From the IMG/VR virus record IMGVR_UViG_3300048865_000005: a stretch of 24,422 bases of DNA; one strand, given 5' to 3'. The notes beneath the pieces were generated by a model that was given only the letters and a program-made list of their open reading frames with translations, was not told the DNA's origin and did no database searches. Numbering within the stretch: the first letter of the stretch is position 1; each line of letters starts with the position of its first letter. Made by a program: the position numbers and the translations under genes. Source of the DNA: a virus (lineage: Duplodnaviria; Heunggongvirae; Uroviricota; Caudoviricetes). Shown in pieces: positions 4,159 through 24,396 of this stretch.

Positions 4159-4173
4159 TTGTCCTTCTTATTA

Positions 4174-5607
4174 TTATTTTATTTTGAAAGCATTGGATTG
4201 AGTTTGGATTGGAACAGCAAACGCGGGAAGTCTTCGATCTTGAGCTAGCTCTATAAAAGCATCACTAGTAGCGTCTACTTGATCGTCTTTATCTTTTTTG
4301 CTACCAGTAAAGCCTTCAAGCTCGAAGAAGTAATCGTCGTTCCACTCGCCTTCAACATAATCAATAAGTTCAGCTTCAGAAGCAGCGGCAAAAGGCTGGA
4401 ATCGAACAATTTTCGACTTATTAGTAGGCCGCATCTTTGCGTAGAAGCCTTCTTCAATAAGCTCTTTAATCATCATCTGCCCGGAAGACTTACCGGCTTG
4501 TCCCGGTTCTTGGGGGAGAATGATTTTTGTACCGGGAGGGTCGGATTTAGCAGTACTTATAATGTTCTGCATTACCTCGCCAAATCTCGCCCTGAATCTA
4601 ACTACGTCAACTATGATGTATCTTCCGGCTTTCGTTTTCGCCATTAATACACCAGCCGTCCAGTCAGGATTCGGGTTTACATCAGAAGGTAGTGTTCCGG
4701 CTATATCCCATGCTCTTACATATGAAACAATATCTTGGTCCCATAGATTGACAGTTGTTAACCACTCCCGTTTGAAATAACCAGAAGCGCTTTCACGAAC
4801 ATACCAATTACCGTCTAGAAGTCTTGCCCGTTCAACGCCCTTCAAACCCATAAGGTTTGCTACGTATTTTGGGTTAATCTTCTGAACAATCGGATTATCA
4901 CGAACAGTTGCAGAGATGAAAGTGAAGCTAAGTGCGAACTCTTCAGGAATACCGTAGTTGGCTAATAGCTCTTCTTTAGTATCACCCCAAACGAAGTCAC
5001 CTTCTTGGAAGCTGAAGTAACGTAACGTACCGTCTTTACTTCTATCTGGTGTACCATCTTCGTTAAGATATGGCTCAACCCACTTTCTTAAGAAATGGTC
5101 TGCATCAGGGTTACACGTAATCTTTAAGTGTGGTCTAACTTCCGGGCAACTTGGGTTTCGCATACGAGACTGAATATACTGAATCATATGCTGGGTAAAT
5201 TGTGTTCCTTCATCTACATAGAATAAGTTAGCTTCGGAACCTTGCCAGTTAACATCAGCATCATCGTTTTCGAAGTGCTTTAAATAGATTTCTGCACCGG
5301 ACTTATGGAATACAAATTTCCCGTCTTTAGCTCTCCACGTAAACTCATCAGGGCTATAAGCCATACCGAACAATCGCTTACATTTAGTAAGCAAGCCACC
5401 CGGACCTGTAAGTTGTGGGGTAGTTCGACGAGTCATTACACCAATGAAGTTAGGTGTATCTGTGTATTTTAGAAAATCGATAACGCCAATTTCAGACTTA
5501 CCGGAACCTGCCGCACCGCCAAAAAGCGTAACATCAGCTTCAGAAGTCATGTACATTAACTGACGATCAGAACAGGGACCGGGAAGTTTTTTATTTTCTT
5601 CGGTCAT
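4174..5607 (-). CDS. terL: Terminase large subunit (477 aa)
   Basis: Walker A FGGAAGSGKS, Walker B FYVDEG, coupling motif TCNP, and nuclease domain RAWDIA ... DDQVDATSDA. Confidence 0.95.
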   Translation of the reverse strand: MTEENKKLPGPCSDRQLMYMTSEADVTLFGGAAGSGKSEIGVIDFLKYTDTPNFIGVMTRRTTPQLTGPGGLLTKCKRLFGMAYSPDEFTWRAKDGKFVFHKSGAEIYLKHFENDDADVNWQGSEANLFYVDEGTQFTQHMIQYIQSRMRNPSCPEVRPHLKITCNPDADHFLRKWVEPYLNEDGTPDRSKDGTLRYFSFQEGDFVWGDTKEELLANYGIPEEFALSFTFISATVRDNPIVQKINPKYVANLMGLKGVERARLLDGNWYVRESASGYFKREWLTTVNLWDQDIVSYVRAWDIAGTLPSDVNPNPDWTAGVLMAKTKAGRYIIVDVVRFRARFGEVMQNIISTAKSDPPGTKIILPQEPGQAGKSSGQMMIKELIEEGFYAKMRPTNKSKIVRFQPFAAASEAELIDYVEGEWNDDYFFELEGFTGSKKDKDDQVDATSDAFIELAQDRRLPAFAVPIQTQSNAFKIK

Positions 5608-5636
5608 ATATTTTTATTATTATTGTTATTATAAAT

Positions 5637-5713
5637 TGGTTTGGAATACTGTCTCTTGTCGATTCACAGTCTCGTGGGACAGACTACGCTGAGGTATCCT
5701 CGGATTATTCCAA
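5637..5713 (-). ncRNA. 77-nt tRNA-like element (acceptor-type stem plus ACCA, no canonical T-loop)
   Basis: TTGGAATA(5713-5706) pairs with TATTCCAA(5648-5641) and is followed by A-CCA. It starts 3 nt after the CCA of tRNA-Ser. Positions 32-36 read CUGUC. Confidence 0.55.
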
Positions 5714-5716
5714 TTT

Positions 5717-5804
5717 TGGCGGAGACGCTTCGATTCGAACGAAGGGAGCTTTTACACTCGGTGGGGTTCAAAGCCACTGCATTAAACCGCTCTGCCACGT
5801 CTCC
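5717..5804 (-). tRNA. tRNA-Ser(UGA), 88 nt
   Basis: GGAGACG/CGTCTCC acceptor, G73, encoded CCA, long variable arm, T-arm CTTCG-TTCGAAT-CGAAG, anticodon loop TT-TGA-AC. Confidence 0.85.
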
Positions 5805-5808
5805 ATGT

Positions 5809-5884
5809 TGGCGAATCAGGTAAGAGTCGAACTTACAACCTTCGGTTTTGGAGACCGACGCTCTGCCAATTGAGCTACTGAGAC
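5809..5884 (-). tRNA. tRNA-Trp(CCA), 76 nt, two acceptor-stem mismatches
   Basis: Anticodon arm TCGGT-CT-CCA-AA-ACCGA, T-arm GTAAG-TTCGACT-CTTAC, G73 and CCA. Confidence 0.85.
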
Positions 5885-5890
5885 ATATAT

Positions 5891-5974
5891 TGGTGGATGT
5901 TCTTGGACTCGAACCAAGGGTGTATCAAAGTACCGGGTTACAGCCGGTTGTCATCGCCGCTAGACTAAACATCC
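5891..5974 (-). tRNA. tRNA-Tyr(GUA), 84 nt
   Basis: GGATGTT/AACATCC acceptor, A73, CCA, anticodon arm ACCGG-CT-GTA-AC-CCGGT, extended variable arm. Confidence 0.9.
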
Positions 5975-5978
5975 AAAT

Positions 5979-6056
5979 TGGCTGGCATATCTGGAATCGA
6001 ACCAGACTCTATGCTGATTAACAGTCAGCCGCATACACCTTGTTTGCTTTATGCCA
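5979..6056 (-). tRNA. tRNA-Asn(GUU), 78 nt
   Basis: TGGCATA/TATGCCA acceptor, G73, CCA, anticodon arm GCTGA-CT-GTT-AA-TCAGC, T-loop TTCGATT. Confidence 0.9.
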
Positions 6057-6106
6057 ATAAATTGTTATTACAAAGAGCACTATTTCTAATGCTCTCTAAT
6101 TAACAA

Positions 6107-7405
6107 CTACTTGATTAGAACTTTAGCTACTTGCTTTGCCATGAGCGAGTAACCAAAAGGACTAGGGTGAGCGTTATCGCTTGAGATAGTCCCATCCATA
6201 GGGATGATTTGACCGTCAGCGTTCATCGCACCGCTAATAGAATCTGCATACCCGACAACAGGCGTTACTCCTGTCATGCCGTCACACATTGCATTGAAAG
6301 CAGTCCGCTTAGCGTCATTAGCTCCCATGTTGTTACGTGTAGTGGTGCATGGGATGCCTTGAGTCAAAAGCAACTCTACAGGCTTACCGTAAGCTCTAAT
6401 GTACTCCAAAACGTTAGCTAAAGCGTTTCTTGCACGATTTAGAGCGTCATCCGTGATCCCACCTGCCGCTACGTCATTAGGGGACCAAGGACAGTAGATT
6501 ACCTTCGTAGGCCGAACCACATCCAGCATATCTTTGATACGTGGAGCGTAGGTCAGAGGCACTTGAGCGTGCAGAGCACCGTTAAAATAGTCGATAGGGC
6601 TATCGGGAGTGCTATTTTCGAGAGCCACGATTTGAGAAGCTGCGTAACACAGTGGACGAGCTTGAATCCCTTCAGAAATCGAATCCCCAGAAATCAACAA
6701 CTGTTGACCAGCTTTCTTCGAAAAGTACTGTACGGCTGGTACGTGCGTCTGAGCTTCTGTGTTAGCTGTCTTGTTGAATGCAGCTTTATTGGTCACTCCG
6801 AGAATTTCTTGCTTCGAAGTCTTGAAGTATCTCGGAGCGTCTGTAGCTCGCCAGTTTGAAGAACCGTTTGCCGGGAAGCTCATTACTGAGCCTGTAGGCT
6901 GTTCAATACGGATCATAATGACAGGACGCTTACCGCCGTCAGTACGAGCCAAGCTTTCTACAGGTATAACGTCAGACCAAGTAATTGAAGTTCTCTCTTC
7001 TCCGAGTCTGGCAGGAAGGGTTACTGACGTTGTACCGTTAAATGTGCAATCAACCCATGTACTACCCGAGAGGGAAAATTCACCAGCCCAAACAGCATCA
7101 TCGCGGTTATAGTCCAATTTATCACGGACACTTACACAAGCTTTAACACCAGCAACAGGTTTGTCGGAAGCGTTATGAACACCGATACGAAAACCGATGA
7201 AATCCGATTCTAACTCCATAACAATGTTTGTTGTCATGTCTGTTGTTAGTGTCGTAGTTGAATAGCGACCGAACAAATTCTTAGTCAGCATGTTTGTTTT
7301 CATGCCGGGTTCAAGCTGATTAATACTTTCAGCAACTTTGCCAGTGCGTAGGGCAGCAGGTAAGCCGACCTTTAAAATGTATTGAGCTAACTCTTGTTGA
7401 TTCAC
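6107..7405 (-). CDS. SGNH/GDSL hydrolase-domain protein with beta-rich N-terminal region (432 aa)
   Basis: Block I LLISGDSISEG, block III-like PWSPND, block V DNAHP; GTG start with AAGGGG SD. Confidence 0.75.
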   Translation of the reverse strand: MNQQELAQYILKVGLPAALRTGKVAESINQLEPGMKTNMLTKNLFGRYSTTTLTTDMTTNIVMELESDFIGFRIGVHNASDKPVAGVKACVSVRDKLDYNRDDAVWAGEFSLSGSTWVDCTFNGTTSVTLPARLGEERTSITWSDVIPVESLARTDGGKRPVIMIRIEQPTGSVMSFPANGSSNWRATDAPRYFKTSKQEILGVTNKAAFNKTANTEAQTHVPAVQYFSKKAGQQLLISGDSISEGIQARPLCYAASQIVALENSTPDSPIDYFNGALHAQVPLTYAPRIKDMLDVVRPTKVIYCPWSPNDVAAGGITDDALNRARNALANVLEYIRAYGKPVELLLTQGIPCTTTRNNMGANDAKRTAFNAMCDGMTGVTPVVGYADSISGAMNADGQIIPMDGTISSDNAHPSPFGYSLMAKQVAKVLIK

Positions 7406-7426
7406 AATCGCCCCTTTTAGTTTTTA

Positions 7427-7801
7427 TTAATTAGGACGTTCTAGGTCCGCTTTAGTTGGTAGATAATCTAAGGAGAATCGCGGCACAACTTCCTGTTTAT
7501 CTTCATCAGCATCCGGGGCAGGAGGCTCTTCGCCTTTCACCATCAGACGCAATTCATTAAGTGTTGCCTCTTCAGTAAGAGCAGCACGAGAAACAGTAAC
7601 GAGCGTATTCACAGTCCATTTAGAGGAGGAGAGTATTTCTTTATCGACTGATATTCCGTTAACGCTATCTGAAATATTCTTAAATGCTTGATCTTGCAAG
7701 AGTAGAAGTTTTTCTTCAGTCTTTCGCAACTTTGACTTTTTAAGCCGAGGGCCGGGGGGAGCACCTTTGGGATTATTAACAGAGCCTTTCTTAGCAGCCA
7801 T
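7427..7801 (-). CDS. Candidate terminase small subunit (124 aa)
   Basis: N-terminal KKGSVNNPKGAPPGPR resembles the G-x-x-x-NP-x-G-x-P-x-G motif (DUF5681 type) seen in small terminases. First large gene of the packaging/head operon. Start revised to ATG 7801 behind a GAGGA SD. Confidence 0.5.
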   Translation of the reverse strand: MAAKKGSVNNPKGAPPGPRLKKSKLRKTEEKLLLLQDQAFKNISDSVNGISVDKEILSSSKWTVNTLVTVSRAALTEEATLNELRLMVKGEEPPAPDADEDKQEVVPRFSLDYLPTKADLERPN

Positions 7802-7857
7802 GTCATTCCTCATTATTGTTTTTATTTTGGATGCTTACTCCCTGAATAAACATTCGA

Positions 7858-7899
7858 AATAAAAATAAGGCTACTAAGCAAGGAGGGAACTTAGCAGCC
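7858..7899 (-). terminator. Intrinsic terminator
   Basis: GGCTGCTAAG-11 nt loop-CTTAGTAGCC (10 bp, with a G-U pair only on the minus strand), followed by TTATTTTTATT. Confidence 0.75.
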
Positions 7900-8030
7900 T
7901 ATAATGTAAACTCATGGAAGAGGAGGAGGAGACACAAGTTTACAAAGACACACTCGGTTAGAGTGTTACGCACATTTGCTTGAATTTCTTCTTATTAGTG
8001 CGGGAGGGAGGAAACATTATTTTAAATCAG
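7860..8030 (-). ncRNA. Candidate ~170-nt sRNA with anti-SD pyrimidine tracts (ends approximate)
   Basis: Consensus promoter upstream, terminator downstream, three hairpins, three CCUCC-containing tracts, no convincing ORF. Confidence 0.6.
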
Positions 8031-8036
8031 AGAACC

Positions 8037-8065
8037 ATTATAGCACGAAAAGTCGAAATTGTCAA
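8037..8065 (-). promoter_or_regulatory. Sigma70 promoter TTGACA-17-TATAAT with extended -10 TG
   Basis: Perfect consensus hexamers at 8065-8060 and 8042-8037. Confidence 0.85.
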
Positions 8066-8091
8066 TACTTATAATTGACTTTTTAATAATT

Positions 8092-8256
8092 TTATGGGTT
8101 ATTTCTCTTAAAAGCGCTAACTTTTTCAGTTAGAGACTCAAAAGCATATTCGAATTTGAAATCTTCGCTTTCATCATCTGCTAGGAGAAAGAGAATGTCT
8201 TGATTACATTCGCAGATTAGTTCACCGCAATCTTCACAGTAGGTAAGTTGTTCCAT
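8092..8256 (-). CDS. Small Cys-motif acidic protein (54 aa), not in ORF track
   Basis: MEQLTYCEDCGELICECNQDILFLLADDESEDF...; downstream of promoter 8387-8414; no clear SD. Confidence 0.5.
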   Translation of the reverse strand: MEQLTYCEDCGELICECNQDILFLLADDESEDFKFEYAFESLTEKVSAFKRNNP

Positions 8257-8386
8257 TATGATAATATCTTATGGGCTTTATGGATCAGGAATCCAAGCCT
8301 TCTTATTGTTAGAAAATGAATTACTCATAACGAACAACGTTACTTAGTAAATCACACCGATCTCCTCTCTTTCAAAACATGCACCT

Positions 8387-8414
8387 ATTATACCACGTTT
8401 TTCCAAATTGTCAA
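8387..8414 (-). promoter_or_regulatory. Sigma70 promoter TTGACA-16-TATAAT with extended -10 TG
   Basis: Consensus hexamers at 8414-8409 and 8392-8387. Flanks resemble those of promoter 8037-8065. Confidence 0.8.
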
Positions 8415-8471
8415 TACTTGTAATCAGATATTTATGCTTTTGTCAAACTTTTTTTTGCCCACTCTACAGCT

Positions 8472-8732
8472 TTAACGACGATTTTCCAAACTACTCATTC
8501 TGTACTCCAACTCCTCTAATTCGTTAGTTAGCTGCTGGTTCGTCTCATACAGTGCCTCAAGTTGGGCAGTGTTTTGTAATGATATCTCCCGTTGCAACTC
8601 AGCATTTTTATCTTTTGCATACTGCAACTGAAAGCGAGTGGACTGATACAGGCTCCACAAGGCCCTATACTGAATAAGCAACTCCCCATAGACAGGGGAG
8701 GGTGTTGGTATTGGTTGATAGCTTATTTTCAT
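8472..8732 (-). CDS. Hypothetical coiled-coil protein (86 aa)
   Basis: ORF abutting the upstream gene; heptad-like C-terminus. Confidence 0.65.
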   Translation of the reverse strand: MKISYQPIPTPSPVYGELLIQYRALWSLYQSTRFQLQYAKDKNAELQREISLQNTAQLEALYETNQQLTNELEELEYRMSSLENRR

Positions 8733-9119
8733 TTACGCTCCATTAATAAATCCGAAGTGGTCTTTTAATACCTTGTTCATAATCTCCCATATGTGCGGAG
8801 ATTTTTCTTGCATCATCGCTAGTCCGGTTCCAATTCCCGCAGAAGGGAATACAATCACACGATCTAGGCGCTGCATGTAAAGCTTCCTGAGTACCTTCAG
8901 TACTTCTTCTTTTTCAGAGTCTTTATCTGAGAAGAAGGCCCAAGGAGCTATAGAAGGGTGTCGTTTGGTAGGTACACCGAAAGCGTTAGGTACGTCCCTG
9001 ATAACAGCTTGTCCTCTCTTTCCATAACGTTTCAGGTTATCTCCGAACACAAATAGCTTATCGGGGTGCTGTCTCAGTAGGGCTTCAGAATACAAACCTG
9101 CATAGACTTCGACTTGCAT
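8733..9119 (-). CDS. Phage protein with FVFGDN motif, probable macro-like domain (128 aa)
   Basis: LFVFGDN...G-x-RGQAVIRDVPNAFGVPTK...VFPSAGIGTGLA; the Gly-rich loops recall macrodomain ADP-ribose-binding loops. Confidence 0.55.
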   Translation of the reverse strand: MQVEVYAGLYSEALLRQHPDKLFVFGDNLKRYGKRGQAVIRDVPNAFGVPTKRHPSIAPWAFFSDKDSEKEEVLKVLRKLYMQRLDRVIVFPSAGIGTGLAMMQEKSPHIWEIMNKVLKDHFGFINGA

Positions 9120-9130
9120 AAAACTTCCTT

Positions 9131-9619
9131 TTAGAACGGCAGTTGATTTAGTTCTTCAGCCGTTGCCCTTCTGCTTAGAATGAAATCGTTCTTTATAGTG
9201 GGTTTTTGAGGGGTATTCTCGACGATCTCTTCAGAGTCGTCCGAACGTACCGCTTCATCAATCAAAACGTGTTTACCGTCGATTTCTTCCCACAACTTTA
9301 AATCTGCTACATCTGTGTATACCCAATGGTAGTAATTGCTGTATTTCTGCTTCTCTCCTGTCACAACACCGTGGGCTATTAGTTTTTTCATCATGGTAGC
9401 GATAGAGCGTATGTCTAGTCGTAAGGCATCCGCTATATCTTGCTGTTTGTCTCGGTGCTTCCAGCCCTTTTCAATGGTGAAGAATCTGTTACGACTCTTC
9501 ATAAACACATAAACAAGCTTTTCGTTGTTGTTTAGCTTTACAAACTCTCCTGTCACCGTCGATACGAAACCACCAGCCTTCGCAAGACTGTATGGGTACT
9601 GCATAAACCGTTCGCTCAT
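9131..9619 (-). CDS. Winged-helix DNA-binding protein, Rep-like (162 aa)
   Basis: KQQDIADALRLDIRSIATMMKKLIAHGVV HTH followed by a beta-wing (KQKYSNYYHWVY); GAGGAG SD. Confidence 0.6.
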   Translation of the reverse strand: MSERFMQYPYSLAKAGGFVSTVTGEFVKLNNNEKLVYVFMKSRNRFFTIEKGWKHRDKQQDIADALRLDIRSIATMMKKLIAHGVVTGEKQKYSNYYHWVYTDVADLKLWEEIDGKHVLIDEAVRSDDSEEIVENTPQKPTIKNDFILSRRATAEELNQLPF

Positions 9620-9640
9620 ACTCTCCTCATTTGTACATAC

Positions 9641-9883
9641 GAAAATATTTCATATGTGCATGTCTCTCTTACAGTCCTACGGACTCATACCAAAACCGAT
9701 CCGATCAGGATTCATACCAAATCAGACATTTGTTTATACCAATCCAAAACGCTCTTGCTCTTAAAGCTCTTAAAATCTGTATTACTATCTGTATAAATAT
9801 GTCTGTATTACTATTATGTAAATTTTTCATGTGTACACCGGAAAAGATTTCATATGTATATAGGAAATAATTTCATGTGTAAG
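9641..9883. repeat. Iteron-like direct repeats and nested short repeats
   Basis: Four ~20-mers with core TTTCATRTGT (9641-9660, 9818-9837, 9841-9860, 9864-9883; the last three at a 23-bp period). Also TYATACCAA x3, GCTCTT x3 and TCTGTATTACTAT x2. Confidence 0.75.
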
Positions 9884-9939
9884 CCTACTAAATGAGAATT
9901 TCTGCAAAAAGTCGGCCTTTTCTTCGATAGAATCTACCT

Positions 9940-9967
9940 ATGATACAGTTGAGTTACCAACTGTCAA
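9940..9967 (-). promoter_or_regulatory. Sigma70 promoter TTGACA-16-TATCAT with overlapping inverted repeat
   Basis: -35 at 9967-9962, -10 at 9945-9940; inverted repeat ACAGTTG-N6-CAACTGT at 9945-9964. Confidence 0.6.
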
Positions 9968-10009
9968 CCATGAAACGATAAAAAGCCTGAATATTTTACT
10001 AGAAACAGC

Positions 10010-10037
10010 TTGCATTATCTGAAATGCGTGGTATTCT
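10010..10037 (+). promoter_or_regulatory. Sigma70 promoter TTGCAT-16-TATTCT with extended -10 TG
   Basis: Immediately upstream of the GGGAG SD of the first rightward gene. Confidence 0.55.
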
Positions 10038-10061
10038 AATATCTCTTTGGGAGTAAACAAA

Positions 10062-10673
10062 ATGTCTACAATTTTGAATAATACGGTAACAGGGGAGAGT
10101 ATGCAGGGATTTGGAATTGAAATGGTGAGCATGTTAACGAAGGCTCAAGCCTTCTGTATCGCGGCTCATAGCGCAATAGGACAGGTACGCAAATACTCAG
10201 GTGAACCATATTGGCTGCATCCTTGGGAGGTGGCTCAGATCGTGTATGAGCATTCAAGCGGAAGCAACGCAGGCATGTTATGTGCTGCATTCTTGCATGA
10301 TGTGGTTGAAGATACTCAGGTAAATATTTCTACAATTGAAGAGCAATTTGGGCCGTATGTAGCCAGTCTGGTAGCTGACCTTACGGACGTTTCGAAGCCT
10401 GAAGATGGGAATCGAGCAACACGTAAAGGGATTGACCGTGAGCACACAGCTAACGCAAGCCCCGATGCTAAGACGATTAAGCTCGCAGATTTAATTTCTA
10501 ATACGAAAGATATCCTGACTAATGATTTGGAGTTTGCTCGTGTGTATATCCCTGAAAAGCGAGCACTTCTAGAAGTGCTAAAAGAAGGTGATCCAGCGTT
10601 GTATGAAATGGCGAATGCCTTAGTAACAGAGGCAGAAAAGATTTTGAAGGAATTGGAGGTAGTATCGGCTTGA
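10062..10673 (+). CDS. HD-domain protein, small alarmone hydrolase (RelA/SpoT/Mesh1-like)
   Basis: AH..Q-x-RKYSGEPYWLHP, FLHDVVEDT, LVADLTD and KLADLISN motifs. Start revised to ATG 10062 after GGGAG. Confidence 0.85.
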   Translation: MSTILNNTVTGESMQGFGIEMVSMLTKAQAFCIAAHSAIGQVRKYSGEPYWLHPWEVAQIVYEHSSGSNAGMLCAAFLHDVVEDTQVNISTIEEQFGPYVASLVADLTDVSKPEDGNRATRKGIDREHTANASPDAKTIKLADLISNTKDILTNDLEFARVYIPEKRALLEVLKEGDPALYEMANALVTEAEKILKELEVVSA

Positions 10674-10888
10674 TTATTATTGGTGCTTTTGCAGTGTTGG
10701 TATATTTGATGTGTGGTAGCGGCTTCTATTTCGACGTGATTGGTCGAATTAAGTTTGAAAAGATCATGGACTATGAAGAGTGTCCAAGGTTTTATCAAAC
10801 TGCTACCGCGTTTGTTTCCCTGTTTTGGCCTTTGTTTGTAGTGTATGGGCTTGTAAGTAACAATTTTAAGAAGAAGGTGAGCGTATGA
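10670..10888 (+). CDS. Hypothetical membrane protein (72 aa)
   Basis: Two hydrophobic segments; ATGA-type overlap. Confidence 0.7.
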   Translation: MIIIGAFAVLVYLMCGSGFYFDVIGRIKFEKIMDYEECPRFYQTATAFVSLFWPLFVVYGLVSNNFKKKVSV

Positions 10889-11181
10889 AGAAGATGATTA
10901 GCACGAACCATGTGCATGTATTTGTAGAGCAAATTCTAGAAGCTGTAGCTGAAGGGTACAGCGTAGATTTCTCCCCAACACATTACCCGCGTCGAAATGG
11001 TTCTGCCTTGGTTTGCTACGTGGAGCTAATCAAACGCTTCACTAAAGAGGAATTAGAGGGTATGGAGTGGGAGAAGTTGAAGGAGACAGCCCAAGAGTTA
11101 GATTGCGGTACTCATCGGAGCCGTGATGTGCTGGTGAAGAGGATTCTTGATAAGCAGGAGGGTAAGGAGACTATAGAGTGA
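10885..11181 (+). CDS. Hypothetical protein (98 aa)
   Basis: Overlapping start/stop and an AAGGTGA SD. Confidence 0.7.
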   Translation: MKKMISTNHVHVFVEQILEAVAEGYSVDFSPTHYPRRNGSALVCYVELIKRFTKEELEGMEWEKLKETAQELDCGTHRSRDVLVKRILDKQEGKETIE

Positions 11182-11381
11182 AAATTAACGAGCTAATCGG
11201 TCATCTTCTAGTTGTTCTACTGAAGGAAGGTGATATTGAAGTAGTCTCTGCGAAAGATGCAGAGGGTAATGGCTACGATACTGTTCGTGGTGCAGATTTA
11301 GTATATATATGTTCAGATATGGAAACGGTATTTGACAATAAAGAGCCTGATACTAGCCCCGTTGCTTTGATTTTTCTATGA
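11178..11381 (+). CDS. Hypothetical phage protein with DAEGNGY motif (67 aa)
   Basis: AAGGAG SD; GTGA overlap. Confidence 0.7.
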   Translation: MKINELIGHLLVVLLKEGDIEVVSAKDAEGNGYDTVRGADLVYICSDMETVFDNKEPDTSPVALIFL

Positions 11382-11390
11382 GGAGTTGGA

Positions 11391-11609
11391 ATGCAAGTAA
11401 TTTCTGGTAAGAAAGAGTTTACGCCCGTAACTATTACTCTTGAGTCTCAAGAAGAGGTTGATGTTTTGTATGCTATGGCGGGAAGCGTTAAAGGGATCGG
11501 CAGAACACGCCAAATCACTAATATAATGTACGCTCTTCTTGAGGATTTTGTGGTAGATGATGCTTCGACACTGGAATTGTTCGAAGGTCAACTTAGTGCG
11601 AAGTATTAA
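11391..11609 (+). CDS. Hypothetical protein (72 aa)
   Basis: GAGGAG SD. Confidence 0.7.
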   Translation: MQVISGKKEFTPVTITLESQEEVDVLYAMAGSVKGIGRTRQITNIMYALLEDFVVDDASTLELFEGQLSAKY

Positions 11610-11610
11610 T

Positions 11611-11760
11611 ATGAAGTTTGGACAGTTCTATAGCGAAGTTTTATCTCTTGCTGTGCTCCTCGGGTATAGTCAAAGTCAAGTAGCTAAGTTTGAAAGCGAA
11701 ATATATATCTGCTTTGAAGAAGGTATGTCGGCTGAACATTGTGTAACAGAAGTGTTTTAA
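11611..11760 (+). CDS. Hypothetical protein (49 aa)
   Basis: Start revised to the ATG just after the upstream stop (MKFGQFYSEV...). Confidence 0.55.
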   Translation: MKFGQFYSEVLSLAVLLGYSQSQVAKFESEIYICFEEGMSAEHCVTEVF

Positions 11761-11768
11761 GGAGCGAT

Positions 11769-11984
11769 ATGGAAGATTTTATTTCTGGTTTACTGATAGG
11801 TGCGATCATTGCTGTAGGCATAGCGTTAGGGCTATCTAACTATACGATCCGTCCAGACGATATAGTAAAAGTATCTACGAAATGTGAGCGAAATGGCGGA
11901 CTAAGGGAGGCACTTATCACAGGCACTGGATACTATAAGATTAGCTGTGCAGACGGTGCAGGCTTCTCGATTGGTAAAGGGTAA
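11769..11984 (+). CDS. Hypothetical membrane-anchored protein (71 aa)
   Basis: AAGGAG SD; N-terminal hydrophobic helix; two Cys. Confidence 0.65.
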   Translation: MEDFISGLLIGAIIAVGIALGLSNYTIRPDDIVKVSTKCERNGGLREALITGTGYYKISCADGAGFSIGKG

Positions 11985-12280
11985 TGCTGGATAACGTAAT
12001 TCATGGGCTATTCACGCTAGGCAAAGGGCTTCTAATTCCTGCTCTGCTGGGAATCGTGGCGTGGTGCCTCACATACCCAATAGGGTATTACGGCTGTTCG
12101 TCCTACGCCCAAGCCAAAGAATTTTCTTTTTGGCGTTATCGTTACTTTGAGTGCTATTTACAGGCAAAAGACGGTATTTGGTACACTAAGCAAGAATATG
12201 TGTCAAGTCAAATAGGCGTTAAAGTTAACGTTTTACATGAAAATAACGTTGCAGAAATTACTAGGCTCGGAGAAAAATGA
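11984..12280 (+). CDS. Hypothetical membrane protein (98 aa)
   Basis: TAATG overlap; N-terminal TM segment. Confidence 0.65.
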   Translation: MLDNVIHGLFTLGKGLLIPALLGIVAWCLTYPIGYYGCSSYAQAKEFSFWRYRYFECYLQAKDGIWYTKQEYVSSQIGVKVNVLHENNVAEITRLGEK

Positions 12281-12309
12281 TTGGATGGATAATTTTTTTA
12301 ATTTTCCTA

Positions 12310-12338
12310 TGGACATTAAAGCTTAACTTCACTACAAT
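12310..12338 (+). promoter_or_regulatory. Sigma70 promoter TGGACA-17-TACAAT
   Basis: 5/6 and 5/6 matches in an intergenic gap. Confidence 0.6.
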
Positions 12339-12404
12339 TCTCGGCTACGACAGCGAATTATTCGAACAATTTATTCGTGATTTTGAAGTAAAGGATAATC
12401 GGTA

Positions 12405-12776
12405 ATGGCTACAGCAGACTACGAATTCGATCTCTATGTTGCAAACAAGCTACGGTCAAAGGCAGATAACGCTAAAGCTCGTGGTATTGAGTTCAAGATG
12501 ACTTTCCAATCGATGAAGAACCTCCTGAAAGCAAAACACTGTTACTACACAGGTGTGAAGCTAACGAAGGCTGGGGAGGGTAAGCAGCGTCCGTCAGATA
12601 TGACAATTGATCGAATTGATCCAAACAAAGGATATGTGACGGGAAACGTAGTCGCTTGCTGTTTTGGTTTTAATCAACTAAAGAGCCAAGTAGAGCACGG
12701 AGGCGTAGACGCGGTAGTCTTAATAAGTAAGGCGTTTTTGAAGGCATCAAAAAGAATGGCTTCGTCGTGCCCGTAA
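12405..12776 (+). CDS. HNH-like (beta-beta-alpha-Me) endonuclease (123 aa)
   Basis: CYYTG...TIDRIDPNKGYVTGNVVACC-x-x-FNQLK pattern. Confidence 0.7.
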   Translation: MATADYEFDLYVANKLRSKADNAKARGIEFKMTFQSMKNLLKAKHCYYTGVKLTKAGEGKQRPSDMTIDRIDPNKGYVTGNVVACCFGFNQLKSQVEHGGVDAVVLISKAFLKASKRMASSCP

Positions 12777-12817
12777 GAAAAATCTCAACTTTTTTGAAAC
12801 ATTTTCAGGTGAATAAG

Positions 12818-12961: not shown

Positions 12962-12962
12962 G

Positions 12963-13250: not shown

Positions 13251-13253
13251 TAG

Positions 13254-14827: not shown

Positions 14828-14873
14828 AGGGTGCTGAGATTAGAGTGATACGTACACAACAGGAGAAGCCTCA

Positions 14874-21252: not shown

Positions 21253-21281
21253 ATTATAAATACTTATAACCTCCCGTGCAA
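21253..21281 (-). promoter_or_regulatory. Early sigma70 promoter TTGCAC-17-TATAAT with 18-bp palindrome
   Basis: Palindrome copy 21253-21270, 16/18 to consensus. Confidence 0.8.
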
Positions 21282-21294
21282 GCTTTTCTTTTGA

Positions 21295-21411
21295 TTACAA
21301 AGTAAACCATGCACCGATGACGAATGCAGAAATAGCAATCAAAGGTACAGAAAGCATGGCACACACAACAAGCATACCTACCGCATGGAACACCTCAAAA
21401 AACTTATCCAT
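21295..21411 (-). CDS. Single-TM peptide (38 aa), not in ORF track
   Basis: AGGAG SD; MDKFFEVFHAVGMLVVCAMLSVPLIAISAFVIGAWFTL; own promoter. Confidence 0.65.
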   Translation of the reverse strand: MDKFFEVFHAVGMLVVCAMLSVPLIAISAFVIGAWFTL

Positions 21412-21448
21412 CTGCCCGACTCCTAAGAACCAATAAAAAGATAGGCGA

Positions 21449-21477
21449 ATTATAAGTATATGTAATTATTCGGTCAA
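21449..21477 (-). promoter_or_regulatory. Early sigma70 promoter TTGACC-17-TATAAT with 18-bp palindrome
   Basis: Palindrome copy 21449-21466, 15/18. Confidence 0.8.
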
Positions 21478-21521
21478 CATATTTTTAAAAAGAGATAACA
21501 TTTATAGCCTTTAGGATTGCT

Positions 21522-21752
21522 TTAACAGTTACAGCCATTCCCTACCCTCCCGGCACTCTTAACAGGTATTACATGTACTTTTGTTTTAGACGTTTGGACA
21601 TAGGACAAGCTTACCTTGTACCCTTCGGACTCTGGAAATAGAGCTTTAAAATGACGAGTCAAGGCAATGGCCGATTCTTGGTCTTTAAGGCTCTTTTCTG
21701 ACGTTGCAAAATAGAGTCTACCATTCTTGTATACTGTAATTTCATAGTGCAT
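21522..21752 (-). CDS. Hypothetical early protein (76 aa)
   Basis: Start revised to MHYEITVYKNG after GAGGTG. Confidence 0.7.
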   Translation of the reverse strand: MHYEITVYKNGRLYFATSEKSLKDQESAIALTRHFKALFPESEGYKVSLSYVQTSKTKVHVIPVKSAGRVGNGCNC

Positions 21753-21820
21753 GGCCTGCACCTCTAAAGCGTTCCTGTTCTTACTTATCGGCATAGGTTA
21801 CTTAGACTTTAAAGCCCGGA

Positions 21821-22276
21821 TTACCGGGCTAGGCTGCTCAGCATGGCTTCATATTCTTGTAAGTCTCGCTTGTCTTGTTCCTGAGACTCTTCAAACAATG
21901 CTTCCGCACCTTTGTAGCTATCGCGGTTTGCTTCGCGTGCTTCGATAGCTTTCTTTAGGCGGTTAATTTCACGCTTTAGGCGCTTTTGTTCCTTAGCCTG
22001 CTTTGCCGCCTCTACTTCGTTGACAGTGCCTACAACATGGCGTAGCCATACGGTCTCACTCTTGCCGCTTTGCGGAAGGTACTTGATAACCTTCTCAACG
22101 CCTTGCGCATCGCAGTGGTAGAACAGGCTGAAGTTGTTGCCGTATACGTCACCGCCACAAATGAAAGTGTTTAGCTCTTGGCACTGTGACAGAAGGAACG
22201 CGGCCTGCTTCTCGGACTTGAACAGACCATTATTAGATTTGACAAGGGAAGCGAAAGAAACGGCAACGTTCGACAT
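21821..22276 (-). CDS. Hypothetical early protein with C-terminal coiled coil (151 aa)
   Basis: Start revised to MSNVAV after GGAG. Confidence 0.7.
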   Translation of the reverse strand: MSNVAVSFASLVKSNNGLFKSEKQAAFLLSQCQELNTFICGGDVYGNNFSLFYHCDAQGVEKVIKYLPQSGKSETVWLRHVVGTVNEVEAAKQAKEQKRLKREINRLKKAIEAREANRDSYKGAEALFEESQEQDKRDLQEYEAMLSSLAR

Positions 22277-22326
22277 GTTACAACTCCGAGAGCTGAGGAG
22301 GACCATTCCCCCTCTTCATGCTGGTA

Positions 22327-22355
22327 ATTATAAGTACTTATAATCCAATGCGCAA
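22327..22355 (-). promoter_or_regulatory. Early sigma70 promoter TTGCGC-17-TATAAT with perfect 18-bp palindrome
   Basis: ATTATAAGTACTTATAAT at 22327-22344. Confidence 0.85.
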
Positions 22356-22359
22356 GCTT

Positions 22360-22686
22360 TTATTCACCGCTTGCAAAGGTTTTTCCAACTACTTGCATAA
22401 AGGCTTCATAGTCTTTTTTAGCTTGTTCATCACAGGCTAGCCAGTCTCCGAAATCAGGCGACGGAATCATAACGATATCCAAACGATTATTTGCCTCTTG
22501 GGGAATAAGTGCCTGACTCCATGAAGGAACAGTACCAACCGAGTAAATGCGAAACAACATTTTCCGGTAGCCAAACAACATAACCTGATCCAAGCTGTAA
22601 GGGTTGAACTTTCCTTTCCAAGCTTTACCGCCATTTGCACAAAAGGCTTTGATGTATGCTTTAACTGTTGGGTGCTGCTTAGCCAT
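22360..22686 (-). CDS. Hypothetical early protein (108 aa)
   Basis: GAGGT SD. Confidence 0.7.
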   Translation of the reverse strand: MAKQHPTVKAYIKAFCANGGKAWKGKFNPYSLDQVMLFGYRKMLFRIYSVGTVPSWSQALIPQEANNRLDIVMIPSPDFGDWLACDEQAKKDYEAFMQVVGKTFASGE

Positions 22687-22737
22687 GATACTAACCTCAG
22701 AGACTAGGGAACGTCTACCGTCCCCTTTATGTCATTC

Positions 22738-22765
22738 ATTATAAGTGCTTATAATAATATGTAAA
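22738..22765 (-). promoter_or_regulatory. Early sigma70 promoter TTTACA-16-TATAAT with 18-bp palindrome
   Basis: Palindrome copy 22738-22755, 17/18. Confidence 0.75.
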
Positions 22766-22773
22766 GACTTTTA

Positions 22774-22983
22774 TTATCTGAATGGTTCATTACGCCATAG
22801 CTGCTCGACTTCTTCTAACTGAATATCCGCCTTGGTTACACTATCAGATGTGGATATGTCGAAGCGCTTACAGGTACGTTCGATCATATACATAGCGTTA
22901 TTAATCGCCTCTATTGTTTGCTTGTTCATACAAGGCGATTCAGCGAGTAAAGAGAGTTGATACATTACAGCTTGGATATTCAT
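22774..22983 (-). CDS. Hypothetical early protein (69 aa)
   Basis: AGGAG SD. Confidence 0.7.
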   Translation of the reverse strand: MNIQAVMYQLSLLAESPCMNKQTIEAINNAMYMIERTCKRFDISTSDSVTKADIQLEEVEQLWRNEPFR

Positions 22984-22997
22984 TATAAAGACTCCTA

Positions 22998-23300
22998 TTA
23001 GGCAAATAGAGCGGATTGTTCGGTATTGTACGTTGCTTTGTTTTCCATAGTCTTGCGGGCTACTTGGGAAAACTTGGCGGAGTATGTCACGTCATAGTCT
23101 AGACCGAAACACACTTTCACAACATGCTTGACGGTCTCGGTGCTTCCGTCGATTAGCAGCAAACCTTTACCGATGAAGTGACCGAATAGGGTACGCTGTT
23201 CTTTAGCAGATAGTTTGCCTTCCCATTTACCGCACACCGAGCCGGTACGCTCAAGAAGAAAGAAAGCTAGGTTTGCCACTGCTTCAAACTTGTCCATCAC
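22998..23300 (-). CDS. Hypothetical early protein (100 aa)
   Basis: GAGGTG SD. Confidence 0.7.
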   Translation of the reverse strand: MMDKFEAVANLAFFLLERTGSVCGKWEGKLSAKEQRTLFGHFIGKGLLLIDGSTETVKHVVKVCFGLDYDVTYSAKFSQVARKTMENKATYNTEQSALFA

Positions 23301-23347
23301 TTCACCTCTACCGTGTGAGGCGAGTTGTTCGCCTCTCTATAGGAATG

Positions 23348-23376
23348 ATTATAAGTATTTGTAATTTAGAGGTCAA
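23348..23376 (-). promoter_or_regulatory. Early sigma70 promoter TTGACC-17-TATAAT with 18-bp palindrome
   Basis: Palindrome copy 23348-23365, 16/18. Confidence 0.85.
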
Positions 23377-23379
23377 GAA

Positions 23380-23712
23380 TTATTTAATGAAATTTTCTAA
23401 GCTATTCGCAAAGGCTTTGTGCTGCTTATGGCTGTTTATATCTAATCCAAGCGCGGTAGCGTCGAGAGAACACAAAGCAAGCATAAACCTTGCCTTACCT
23501 TCGATAATATGTGCAGAAACAATACCGTCAAACTTGGACGTTTTAACGTATGCAGCAAACAAAGTGCCGTTAGGCTTATAAAACAAAACTTTGCCTTTCT
23601 TGTGTTCGTAATAACCTGAAGCTGTACGGCCTGCTAATGGTTTGAAAAGTGTATTAACTATAGCGTCAGAGCCTTTGACAAAGTATTGACCGTCGAACGT
23701 TGCAATAGTCAT
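23380..23712 (-). CDS. Hypothetical early protein (110 aa)
   Basis: GAGGG SD. Confidence 0.7.
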   Translation of the reverse strand: MTIATFDGQYFVKGSDAIVNTLFKPLAGRTASGYYEHKKGKVLFYKPNGTLFAAYVKTSKFDGIVSAHIIEGKARFMLALCSLDATALGLDINSHKQHKAFANSLENFIK

Positions 23713-23759
23713 TCTAAACCCTCACAAACTTTGATATTAAACTAAGTTTCCCTTCTCGT

Positions 23760-24053
23760 TCAAACCTTTACGCGACGTTTGATTAAACGATAACTTCCAG
23801 AGCCGTTTAATTGATACTCTTTTAAACGGACTTTCGCTTCTTTTTCATTATCTTCCGTGCTTTCGTCGTCCCAGCCGTAACCGTAGTTACCCTGCACTAT
23901 GAATTCCTGAACGGTCCGACGCGTTACCTTAATTTCCGGCTTATGCTCGCCACTGTCTACAAGCAACTTTTTTGCCTCTTCCGCTGTTGTGGCGTCAGTG
24001 AAAAATACTGTGTCAATCAGTTTACCGTTTAAACGCACATTAAAGCTTGCCAT
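23760..24053 (-). CDS. Hypothetical early protein (97 aa)
   Basis: AGGA SD; QGNYGYGWDD motif. Confidence 0.7.
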   Translation of the reverse strand: MASFNVRLNGKLIDTVFFTDATTAEEAKKLLVDSGEHKPEIKVTRRTVQEFIVQGNYGYGWDDESTEDNEKEAKVRLKEYQLNGSGSYRLIKRRVKV

Positions 24054-24084
24054 TTTCGAATTCCTATGCTTGATTTACAGAATA

Positions 24085-24113
24085 ATTATAAACACTTATA
24101 ACATTTAAGTCAA
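24085..24113 (-). promoter_or_regulatory. Early sigma70 promoter TTGACT-17-TATAAT with 18-bp palindrome
   Basis: Palindrome copy 24085-24102, 15/18. Confidence 0.85.
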
Positions 24114-24117
24114 GAAA

Positions 24118-24336
24118 TTATTCGTAATATTTTTCATCAGTAATTAACAGTGTACCGCCGAACATATTCACACGGTCTTTCATCTGCTCAACAGTCATGA
24201 AAGGTTCGATAGAAAAATCGATATAATAGCTATCGTTACACATGTAAACGTCGCCTGTATGGTACTGTACAGCTTGTGGAAAAGCCATAAATTTTGCTAT
24301 TTCTTTGGCGGTGGAGAAGAATGCGCAAGCTTTCAT
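24118..24336 (-). CDS. Hypothetical early protein (72 aa)
   Basis: AGGA SD. Confidence 0.7.
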   Translation of the reverse strand: MKACAFFSTAKEIAKFMAFPQAVQYHTGDVYMCNDSYYIDFSIEPFMTVEQMKDRVNMFGGTLLITDEKYYE

Positions 24337-24367
24337 GATTTTTCCTATGTCTGGTTAAGATGTGATC

Positions 24368-24396
24368 ATTATAAGTACTTGTAATATTGAGGTCAA
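24368..24396 (-). promoter_or_regulatory. Early sigma70 promoter TTGACC-17-TATAAT with 18-bp palindrome
   Basis: Palindrome copy 24368-24385, 17/18. Confidence 0.85.

What the first reader, a model, noticed from the sequence alone, without database searches (positions are those of the whole stretch)
8058..8424. The same palindrome is moved onto the -35 box at the two promoters feeding the sRNA/tRNA/head operon
Seen: ATTGTCAATACTTATAAT (8058-8075, 15/18) and ATTGTCAATACTTGTAAT (8407-8424, 14/18). Here the promoter-proximal half is the TTGACA box and the intact half lies just upstream (about -45 to -28). For the 17-bp-spacer promoter the centre is shifted 21 bp, about two helical turns, relative to the early promoters. 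Established: regulators bound over the -10/spacer usually repress, whereas sites abutting -35 can activate (class II activation, lambda cI at PRM). Inference: one protein could switch early genes off and the sRNA/morphogenesis operon on, forming a compact early-to-late switch coupled to the anti-SD RNA.
Basis: partly seen in the sequence, partly recalled or inferred. Interest (0 to 1): 0.72.

Follow-up and report, generated by a model that had tools for sequence, protein, structure and literature searches.

The report
Half an operator fused to two promoters
Two exceptionally strong host-type promoters at the head of a soil phage's small-RNA and virion-gene operon carry one intact half of the 18-base palindrome found on about twenty of its early promoters. 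The other "half" is just the promoter's own -35 box, so a shared regulator is plausible but the proposed early-off/late-on switch is unproven and sits badly with the geometry.

Summary
The quoted sequences, coordinates, match counts (15/18, 14/18) and the 21-bp shift are correct. On the minus strand they belong to two perfect sigma70 promoters, P1 (TTGACA 8065-8060, 17 bp, TATAAT 8042-8037) and P2 (8414-8409, 16 bp, 8392-8387). Both have a TGn extended -10.

I rebuilt the whole 88,295-bp phage genome. The palindrome marks about 20 early promoters at -24 to -7. The P1/P2 block occurs only twice.

It is not "the same palindrome". The distal half scores 14.2 and 13.6 bits, as good as the best true half-sites. 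The promoter-proximal half scores 0.3 bits; the weakest true half scores 6.5. P1 and P2 share a sharply bounded block (-46 to about -27) inside otherwise diverged flanks, so the half-site looks selected.

The dyad lies at -36.5, so the second subunit of a dimer would sit on TTGACA and compete with sigma region 4. Fully consensus promoters also need no activator. Escape from, or weak, shut-off therefore fits better than activation.

Metatranscriptome contigs hint that P2 is active in situ. No relative carries the palindrome, so conservation could not be tested. One candidate regulator is an orphan Xre-type HTH protein predicted to form a homodimer. An earlier scan report on this genome already described the early-promoter palindrome.

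The parts
8060..8065 (-). P1 -35 hexamer, TTGACA
   Evidence: 12/12 consensus promoter with a 17-bp spacer.
8037..8047 (-). P1 extended -10, CGTGC-TATAAT (TG at 8045-8044). Predicted +1 at about 8030.
   Evidence: The +1 position is inferred from the -10 position.
8066..8075 (-). P1 distal operator half-site, ATTATAAGT(A), at -45..-36.
   Evidence: Exact match. 14.2 bits in the half-site matrix.
8409..8414 (-). P2 -35 hexamer, TTGACA
   Evidence: 12/12 consensus promoter with a 16-bp spacer.
8387..8397 (-). P2 extended -10, CGTGG-TATAAT. Predicted +1 at about 8380.
   Evidence: RNA contigs of two metatranscriptomes end at 8357-8366 with sequencing adapter attached and are at least 7-10 times deeper than upstream contigs. 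This is a weak hint.
8415..8424 (-). P2 distal operator half-site, ATTACAAGT(A), at -44..-35.
   Evidence: Exact match. 13.6 bits.
8092..8256 (-). 54-aa ORF between P2 and P1. It has four Cys at the N-terminus and an acidic tail, and matches no family.
7858..8030 (-). About 170-nt structured RNA made from P1. It has three unpaired CU-rich stretches. It ends in a 12-pair hairpin (about 7867-7901 by my count) followed by a U-tail.
   Evidence: Fold at -45.3 kcal/mol, z = -6.7. No Rfam family matched.
21253..24385 (-). The seven full 18-bp palindromes inside the window, at 21253, 21449, 22327, 22738, 23348, 24085 and 24368. Each covers the spacer and -10 (-24..-7) of a minus-strand early promoter. 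They are the reference set for the half-site.

Best explanation
P1 and P2 are two related, intrinsically very strong host sigma70 promoters, with consensus -35, consensus -10 and TGn. They start the minus-strand unit made of a 54-aa ORF, a structured CU-rich RNA, a 128-aa gene, an SGNH-like gene, tRNAs, terminase, portal, head and tail genes.

Each keeps one intact half of the 18-bp operator that sits over the -10 and spacer of about 20 early promoters. That half is fused one base upstream of TTGACA. The other 'half' is the -35 box itself and is no longer a half-site. Two substitutions (TATAAT to GACAAT) would turn an early-type palindrome such as the one at 21253 into this -35.

Inferred mechanism: a phage dimeric DNA-binding protein occupies the full palindromes and blocks RNA polymerase at the early promoters. 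The candidate is the orphan Xre-type 105-aa HTH protein of the early region. At P1/P2 the protein finds only a hemi-operator, and its second subunit would have to displace sigma region 4 from a perfect -35. It would therefore bind weakly and in competition with polymerase. P1/P2 would then escape the early shut-off, or be only mildly damped, and keep firing. That gives an early-to-late shift without any activation.

Shown: the sequences, the geometry, the census, the matrix scores, the bounded conserved block, and RNA present downstream of P2. Inferred: that a protein binds, which protein it is, and the direction of its effect.
For: - Two 12/12 promoters with TG. They are the only such promoters outside the early region, and the only copies of the block in the rebuilt 88,295-bp genome.
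- About 20 palindromes lie at -24..-7 of early promoters. Their spacer half carries 1.1-1.8 bits per position, against 0.3-1.0 for the -35. In 11 of 20 sites that half has C at position 5, which rules out an antisense -10 as the reason for its conservation.
- Distal half 14.2/13.6 bits, proximal half 0.3 bits.
- P1 and P2 share -46..-27 (22 of 24 columns) and CGTGnTATAAT, while the spacer and flanks have diverged.
- The geometry puts the dyad at -36.5/-35.5, on the -35 hexamer (direct reading).
- RNA contigs in two metatranscriptomes run from 8362/8366 leftward at depth 43 and 30. Depth just upstream is 3-4.6 in one and 0 in the other. One contig runs on to about 6114, across P1 and the RNA's terminator.
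- In the syntenic region of PAK_P3, sigma70-like promoters drive genes expressed both early and late: gp160 log2 late/early -0.18 and gp163 +1.26.
- The HTH protein is the only Pfam-recognised HTH in the early region. It is absent from five relatives that lack the palindrome. It is predicted to form a homodimer: ipSAE 0.78, best control 0.00. That mark was reached by 21 of 30 proteins solved as pairs and 0 of 23 solved as single chains. The runs agree in at least 98% of contacts and pLDDT is at least 84. Dimers of this fold have been solved, so the pass may reflect likeness only.
Against: - No binding, timing or reporter data exist.
- Isolated strong half-sites occur at about chance frequency genome-wide (9 seen, about 8 expected by my estimate). 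If P1 and P2 are duplicates, they count as one event.
- If the hemi-operator had no effect, its perfect retention would be unexplained. If it represses, it is odd to place it on the promoters of the late operon.
- In PAK_P3 the sRNAs of the syntenic region are strongly late (sRNA1 log2 6.5). That leaves room for positive control.
- The link to the HTH candidate is circumstantial. It rests on one genome.
Confidence: 0.45

Rival explanations
1. The protein that represses the early promoters binds the half-site abutting -35 and activates P1/P2, in the manner of a class II activator or lambda cI at PRM. This would switch on the sRNA and morphogenesis operon as the early genes go off.
For: - An intact half-site sits at -45..-37, next to where sigma region 4 sits. 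This is close to the position of the promoter-proximal cI subunit at OR2 (from my own knowledge of lambda, not tested here).
- The block is conserved between P1 and P2.
- The sRNAs in the syntenic region of PAK_P3 are 91-fold and 12-fold higher late than early although the promoters there are sigma70-like. Some late-acting control therefore exists in this phage group.
- Two other promoters carry full palindromes centred near -50 (L062:1154 and L062:4393). Operator position does vary in this phage.
Against: - P1/P2 have perfect -35, perfect -10 and TGn. Promoters that depend on activators typically lack a good -35.
- The proximal half scores 0.3 bits. The orientation of the half-site forces a dimer's second subunit onto TTGACA.
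- The dyad at -36.5 is half a helical turn away from the classic -41.5/-42 position.
- No activation data exist and no conservation in relatives could be found.
Confidence: 0.15
2. Evolutionary leftover with no regulatory role. P1/P2 arose from an early-type promoter cassette whose -10 was converted into a -35. The upstream half-site persists as part of an AT-rich upstream region, or through recent duplication or gene conversion between P1 and P2.
For: - P1's 18-mer differs from the real early site at 21253 at only 3 positions. Two of those are the TATAAT to GACAAT change.
- Isolated half-sites occur at chance frequency elsewhere in the genome.
- P1 and P2 may be paralogues, so the shared register may reflect one event.
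- Both upstream regions are AT-rich with A-tracts.
Against: - Sequence on both sides of the block has diverged to near-random identity, while 9 of 9 half-site positions stay at consensus. The only difference is the tolerated C/T position.
- No trace of the ancestral -35 remains upstream (direct reading).
- The half-site is not an A-tract of the UP-element type.
Confidence: 0.25
3. An arrangement like the lambda late promoter PR'. P1 is constitutive and mostly makes a short terminated RNA. Late genes are reached by read-through or antitermination, and the element next to the -35 serves as a loading site for a factor that modifies RNA polymerase.
For: - A perfect promoter is followed by an RNA of about 170 nt with a strong hairpin and U-tail terminator, then a minus-strand module of about 27 kb with almost no intergenic space.
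- An RNA contig bridges the terminator.
- A TAAAAT, which resembles a -10, lies in the first about 15 transcribed bases of P1 (direct reading).
Against: - No Q-like or other antiterminator family appears in the precomputed Pfam lists for the genome's genes. This is only a partial test.
- P2 has the same block but no terminated leader RNA.
- The half-site is shared with about 20 early promoters, where a loading role makes no sense.
Confidence: 0.08

Closest known systems
Bacillus phage phi29 protein p4 at the A2b/A2c/A3 promoters
   Same: One small phage DNA-binding protein would turn early promoters off and late transcription on, purely through where its inverted-repeat site lies relative to each promoter. 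(From my own knowledge, not tested here.)
   Different: In phi29 the late promoter A3 lacks a -35, and p4 binds a full inverted repeat centred near -82. Here P1/P2 have a perfect -35 and only half a site, fused to that -35. No protein has been shown to bind.
Lambda cI at OR2 (activates PRM, represses PR)
   Same: An operator abuts a -35, and the same protein represses other promoters by covering their core elements.
   Different: PRM has a poor -35 and OR2 is a complete operator centred near -42, with its dyad upstream of the hexamer. Here the dyad falls on the hexamer (-36.5), the promoter-proximal half is degenerate (0.3 bits), and the promoters are consensus.
Pseudomonas phage PAK_P3 (Nankokuvirus): promoters 16-18, sRNA1, sRNA2, tRNAs and terminase
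   Same: The layout is syntenic. A divergent promoter region is followed by small genes, sigma70-like promoters, small RNAs, tRNAs and the large terminase (52% identical). Expression there is temporally graded.
   Different: PAK_P3 has no shared palindrome. Its early promoters carry promoter-specific GC-rich inverted repeats around the -10. No half-site occurs in the half of the genome examined (44001-88097), which holds these promoters.
Lambda PR' - 6S RNA - tR' - Q late control
   Same: A strong constitutive sigma70 promoter makes a short terminated RNA directly upstream of a very long late operon.
   Different: No Q-like gene was recognised. The promoter-adjacent element is shared with the early promoters. 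P2 lacks the terminated leader.
PeSL promoter/stem-loop cassettes of T4-type phages (PMC2839356, PMC4122927)
   Same: Many highly conserved near-consensus early promoters are repeated through a plastic early region.
   Different: PeSLs pair a promoter with a GC-rich terminator stem-loop. Here the symmetry is an AT-rich 18-mer that contains the -10 itself and has no terminator features.

Membership tests
Consensus sigma70 promoter with extended -10 | TTGACA and TATAAT hexamers 16-18 bp apart | tested here: met
   12/12 at both sites, with spacers of 17 and 16 bp.
Consensus sigma70 promoter with extended -10 | TGn immediately upstream of the -10 | tested here: met
   CGTGC-TATAAT and CGTGG-TATAAT.
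Consensus sigma70 promoter with extended -10 | Transcripts start just downstream | tested here: inconclusive
   For P2, RNA contigs in two runs end at 8357-8366, which is 14-23 nt below the predicted +1, and depth steps up at least 7-10 fold there. Contigs cannot map a start exactly. There is no clear signal for P1.
Class II activator-dependent promoter (CRP/FNR at -41.5; lambda PRM type) | Complete activator site overlapping or abutting the -35, centred near -41.5/-42 | tested here: not met
   Only the distal half is site-like (14.2/13.6 bits against 0.3 bits). The dyad lies at -36.5/-35.5.
Class II activator-dependent promoter (CRP/FNR at -41.5; lambda PRM type) | Weak or non-consensus -35, so that the promoter depends on the activator | tested here: not met
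   The -35 is a perfect TTGACA.
Class II activator-dependent promoter (CRP/FNR at -41.5; lambda PRM type) | Transcription requires the activator | not testable with these tools
   Needs reporter fusions or in vitro transcription.
Operator-repressed promoter of the phage's early regulon | Full 18-bp palindrome ATTAYAAGTACTTRTAAT | tested here: not met
   14.5 and 13.8 bits, against 17.6-28.5 for the 20 early sites.
Operator-repressed promoter of the phage's early regulon | Site overlaps a core promoter element | tested here: met
   The 18-mer spans -45..-28 and contains the -35 hexamer.
Operator-repressed promoter of the phage's early regulon | A cognate protein binds the site | not testable with these tools
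   The candidate HTH protein is predicted to dimerise. DNA binding was not tested.
Lambda PR'-type late promoter with Q antitermination | Constitutive promoter followed by a short terminated leader RNA ahead of the late operon | tested here: inconclusive
   Predicted for P1 only. An RNA contig crosses the terminator.
Lambda PR'-type late promoter with Q antitermination | Q-family antiterminator gene in the genome | tested here: not met
   No such Pfam family appears in the gene lists. The lists are precomputed, so distant forms could be missed.

The most novel reading that the evidence does not exclude
A hemi-operator fused to a perfect -35 lets the early-promoter repressor share the -35 region with sigma region 4. 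It might do this as a single subunit on the intact half, or as a dimer whose second subunit contacts sigma rather than DNA. The protein that shuts about 20 early promoters would then stimulate or stabilise transcription of an anti-Shine-Dalgarno small RNA and the 27-kb virion operon. That would be a one-protein early-to-late switch in a Felix-O1/PAK_P3-like phage, a group whose late control is still unexplained.
Probability: 0.15. Interest if true: 0.65.

Novelty: new variant of a known kind. Interest (0 to 1): 0.38.

Why it matters
Felix-O1/PAK_P3-like phages include therapy candidates. They use host RNA polymerase throughout infection, yet how they time late genes that sit behind sigma70-like promoters is unknown. 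This uncultured relative offers an unusually legible system:
- one palindrome on about 20 early promoters;
- a single hemi-site on the two promoters of the late operon;
- one orphan HTH protein as a candidate regulator.

A few gel-shift and reporter experiments would show whether operator strength and position alone sort promoters into 'shut off' and 'kept on'. If the hemi-site has no effect, the locus is still a clean example of a new promoter being made by converting a -10 into a -35. As it stands, this is a well-defined hypothesis, not a demonstrated switch.

Tried and rejected
- Close relatives for phylogenetic footprinting: none found. Megablast of 7000-10500 against deposited phages gave no match. 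A distant-mode search with the P1 block gave only chance hits, E of 2 or more.
- IMG/VR pattern scans for the P1/P2 18-mer and for the palindrome returned only single-copy chance matches.
Five look like unrelated promoters.
- A relative search with the 128-aa protein in IMG/VR found nothing.
- Homologues of the SGNH-like gene drop from 100% to 53% identity or less, with nothing between.
- All other contigs of this phage are 100% identical, so there is no population variation to use.
- Four relatives of 78-90 kb have no repeated 12-mer and only one TTGACN-18-TATAAT match each. L059, L020 and half of PAK_P3 have no half-sites.
- L019 has a similar perfect promoter with CGTGG-TATAAT upstream of its terminase, but no CU-rich RNA and no palindrome.
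- An antisense-promoter explanation for the symmetry was rejected. Eleven of 20 left halves would read TGTAAT on the other strand, which lacks the essential A at position 2 of a -10.
- A PeSL-type terminator explanation was rejected. The palindrome is AT-rich and has no U-tail.
- The host SrpA palindrome (TATC...GATA) is unrelated.
- Using shared proteins in unrelated contigs that carry TTATAAGTA clusters to identify the binder gave only an HNH/Srd-like protein, a primase-helicase and a polymerase. No DNA-binding regulator was shared.
- The winged-helix 104-aa protein is conserved in relatives that lack the palindrome and matches replication-initiator families. I rejected it as the binder.
- No close homologue of the HTH protein exists in the 5.8-billion-protein set, so no covariation test was possible.
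- The supplement of the ONT-cappable-seq paper is not held.
- RNA contigs give no timing information. They show no clear start for P1. The contig break at 7997/8006 and the parts without cover prove nothing.

Full report
WHAT THE WINDOW IS. The window is part of an uncultured soil phage. Its minus strand from 9619 down to 1 carries, in order:
- a replication-initiator-like gene, a DUF7831 gene and an 86-aa ORF;
- P2, then a 54-aa ORF, then P1, then about 215 nt with no long ORF;
- a 128-aa gene and a 432-aa SGNH-like gene;
- four tRNAs, the large terminase, the portal and the head genes.

The terminase is 52% identical to those of the Pseudomonas phages of the PAK_P3/PAK_P5 group. Coordinates 10047 to about 20000 hold plus-strand metabolism genes. 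Coordinates 20603-24336 hold small minus-strand early genes, each with its own promoter.

I walked along a 100%-identical Logan contig and rebuilt the circular 88,295-bp genome with no conflicts. This allowed a genome-wide census. It is a bacteriophage genome, used only for counting motifs.

THE OBSERVATION. Both quoted 18-mers are present exactly as written. They match ATTATAAGTACTTATAAT at 15/18 and 14/18. Read on the minus strand they are ATTAYAAGTA-TTGACA-AT. The TTGACA is the -35 of the two best promoter matches in the window:
- P1: TTGACA 8065-8060, 17-bp spacer, TATAAT 8042-8037;
- P2: TTGACA 8414-8409, 16-bp spacer, TATAAT 8392-8387.

Both are 12/12 and both have TG before the -10. With +1 at 8030 and 8380, the 18-mers span -45..-28 and -44..-27. 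At the early promoters the palindrome spans -24..-7, so the shift is 21 bp for P1 and 20 bp for P2.

THE PALINDROME FAMILY. In the full genome the palindrome, allowing up to 3 mismatches, occurs about 22 times. Apart from one site inside a gene and P1/P2, all lie in the early region (window-frame coordinates 21253-37593). Shuffled sequence gives almost none.

Each early copy forms the spacer plus -10 of a minus-strand TTGACY-17-TATAAT promoter. In an alignment of 20 sites:
- the flanks carry about 0 bits;
- the -35 carries 0.3-1.0 bits per position;
- the spacer half of the palindrome carries 1.1-1.8 bits, as much as the -10 half.

That half is therefore under its own selection. Eleven of 20 copies have C at position 5, which would read TGTAAT on the other strand. 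An antisense -10 is therefore not the reason for the symmetry. A sequence-specific dimeric binder is the simplest inference, and an earlier report of this scan reached the same view. I re-derived it here.

WHAT SITS AT P1/P2. A half-site matrix built from those 20 sites gives the distal halves of P1 and P2 14.2 and 13.6 bits, out of a maximum of 14.2. The promoter-proximal 'half' (ATTGTCAAT after reverse complementing) gets 0.3 bits. It misses two invariant positions and scores below every true half (6.5-14.2). The whole 18-mers score 14.5 and 13.8 bits, below all true sites (17.6-28.5). So this is a hemi-operator fused to a -35, not 'the same palindrome moved'.

There is a caveat. Strong isolated half-sites are not rare. 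There are nine genome-wide, seven of them inside genes, which is close to my composition-based estimate of about eight. What makes P1/P2 special is three things:
- both have the half-site in the same register, one base from TTGACA;
- the 12-mer AGTATTGACAAT occurs nowhere else in 88 kb;
- P1 and P2 share a sharply bounded block from -46 to about -27 (22 of 24 columns) plus CGTGnTATAAT, while the spacer, the upstream region and the transcribed region have diverged to near-background identity.

No remnant of an ancestral -35 survives upstream. P1's 18-mer differs from the real early site at 21253 at three positions, and two of these are TATAAT to GACAAT. An origin by converting a -10 into a -35 is therefore plausible, with later retention of the distal half.

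GEOMETRY AND WHAT IT IMPLIES. This paragraph is inference. The inner, dyad-proximal end of the intact half faces the promoter, so the dyad lies at -36.5 (P1) or -35.5 (P2). The second subunit of a dimer would then lie on -36..-28, which is the site of sigma region 4.

Classic class II activators and cI at OR2 are centred near -41.5/-42 and help promoters with poor -35 boxes (established knowledge). P1/P2 are fully consensus with TGn, so activation has little to add and the second subunit would clash with sigma. A regulator with only half a site, competing with polymerase for a perfect -35, should bind poorly. The simplest outcome is that P1/P2 escape the shut-off that full operators impose on the early promoters, or are only mildly damped by it.

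Activation through a single subunit on the distal half remains sterically conceivable, and I cannot exclude it.

CONTEXT DOWNSTREAM.
- P1 fires into about 170 nt that fold into four hairpins (-45.3 kcal/mol, z = -6.7). The RNA has three unpaired CU-rich stretches and a 12-pair terminator with a U-tail. No Rfam family matches.
- P2 precedes a 54-aa protein with four N-terminal Cys and an acidic tail.
- The virion module that follows is about 27 kb with almost no intergenic space, and it contains no other strong sigma70 match. P1/P2 are therefore the obvious entry points.
- Two soil metatranscriptomes hold the region. Their contigs run leftward from 8362 and 8366 and end there in sequencing adapter.
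- Depths downstream are 43 and 30. Just upstream of P2 they are 3-4.6 and 0. One contig continues to about 6114, across P1 and the terminator.
- Contigs cannot give exact starts, strand or timing. I take this as a weak hint that P2 is active in nature, and no more.

RELATIVES. No sequence of intermediate divergence exists in the collections searched, and the other contigs of this phage are identical to it.

Four relatives of 78-90 kb have no repeated 12-mers at all. PAK_P3 is syntenic here: divergent promoters, then promoters 16-18, sRNA1, tRNAs, sRNA2 and the terminase. However, its early promoters carry different GC-rich inverted repeats around each -10, and the half of its genome that I examined has no half-sites.

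PAK_P3 expression data do show that sigma70-like promoters in this region serve genes with mixed timing. The log2 late/early values are gp160 -0.18, gp163 1.26, gp161 2.6, gp162 4.6, sRNA1 6.5 and terminase 6.4. Both 'always on' and 'late' behaviours exist there, and the mechanism is unknown.

CANDIDATE REGULATOR. Pfam finds no HTH in the window's small ORFs. Beyond the window, the early region encodes a 105-aa Xre-type protein (HTH_37, E = 9e-18). The evidence linking it to the palindrome is this:
- It has no homologue in five relatives that lack the palindrome.
- It has no close homologue in the 5.8-billion-protein set.
- It is predicted to form a symmetric homodimer: ipSAE 0.78, best control 0.00. 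That mark was reached by 21 of 30 proteins solved as pairs and 0 of 23 solved as single chains. The runs agree in at least 98% of contacts and pLDDT is at least 84. Dimers of this fold have been solved, so the pass may reflect likeness only.
- Its operon promoter is one of the few early-region promoters whose -10 is not covered by the palindrome. A full palindrome lies upstream at -59..-42 instead.

This is circumstantial. The other HTH protein, a 104-aa winged helix, is conserved in relatives and matches replication initiators.

VERDICT. The idea of a shared factor is reasonable. The activation half of the proposed switch is unsupported and fits the geometry poorly. My ranking is:
- hemi-operator that lets two super-consensus promoters escape early shut-off: 0.45;
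- functionless leftover of promoter birth: 0.25;
- PR'-like loading site: 0.08.

All four can be separated by gel shifts and reporter fusions with the 105-aa protein.

Noticed in passing
window 7858-8030 (-): A structured RNA of about 170 nt made from P1, with three unpaired CU-rich (anti-Shine-Dalgarno-like) stretches and a strong terminator (z = -6.7). It matches no Rfam family.
   Followed up: partly
window 12788-12803 and six more sites outside the window (genome frame 42084, 42357, 49957, 55340, 55689, 65411): A 16-nt motif, ACTTTTTTGAAACATT on the plus strand, sits just upstream of the ribosome-binding sites of plus-strand DNA-metabolism genes. It is probably a phage-specific promoter class. 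An earlier scan report described it.
   Followed up: partly
window 9940-9967 (-); genome frame 47386 (+) and 62165 (+): A third promoter type, TTGACM-N11-CAWCTS-TATCAT. Three copies share the unusual TATCAT -10 and the bases before it.
   Followed up: no
window 9627-9880: The intergenic region next to the replication-initiator-like gene holds three families of direct repeats: 31 nt in 3 copies, 13 nt in 3 copies and 19 nt in 2 copies. It looks like an iteron-type origin.
   Followed up: partly
window 12405-12776 (+): A 123-aa HNH/endonuclease VII-like protein. Its PHROG matches include families named 'Srd anti-sigma factor' (E = 3e-22) and 'decoy of host sigma70'. This is of interest in a phage that relies on host sigma70.
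   Followed up: partly
window 8092-8256 (-): The 54-aa product of the P2 transcript has four Cys in its first 17 residues and a very acidic C-terminal part. It matches no family. It may be a small zinc-binding regulator.
   Followed up: no
L062:1154-1171 and L062:4393-4410 (outside the window): Two early-region promoters carry a palindrome centred near -50 rather than, or as well as, over the -10. One of them heads the operon that encodes the Xre-type HTH protein.
   Followed up: partly
early promoters, for example window 24355-24368 and L062 5170-9760: Many early promoters share CATCAA around the predicted start site. It reads TTGATG on the other strand, which makes the whole promoter quasi-symmetric.
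   Followed up: no
L042:3869-6500 and related IMG/VR contigs (L033, L038, L041, L049, L051, L055): Unrelated podovirus-like contigs carry clusters of four to six TTATAAGTA elements, including the full palindrome, in the intergenic region upstream of a small-terminase-like gene. They share no DNA-binding protein with this phage.
   Followed up: partly
L094 (PAK_P3) 3904-15360: PAK_P3 early promoters each have their own GC-rich inverted repeat bracketing the -10, so that the -10 lies in the loop. This looks like a composite promoter/terminator design.
   Followed up: no
window 7427-7813 (-): The 128-aa protein downstream of P1 has a basic N-terminus with the sequence NPKGAPPGPR. The syntenic PAK_P3 gp161 is annotated DUF5681. 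It may be a small terminase-like protein. I did not test this.
   Followed up: no
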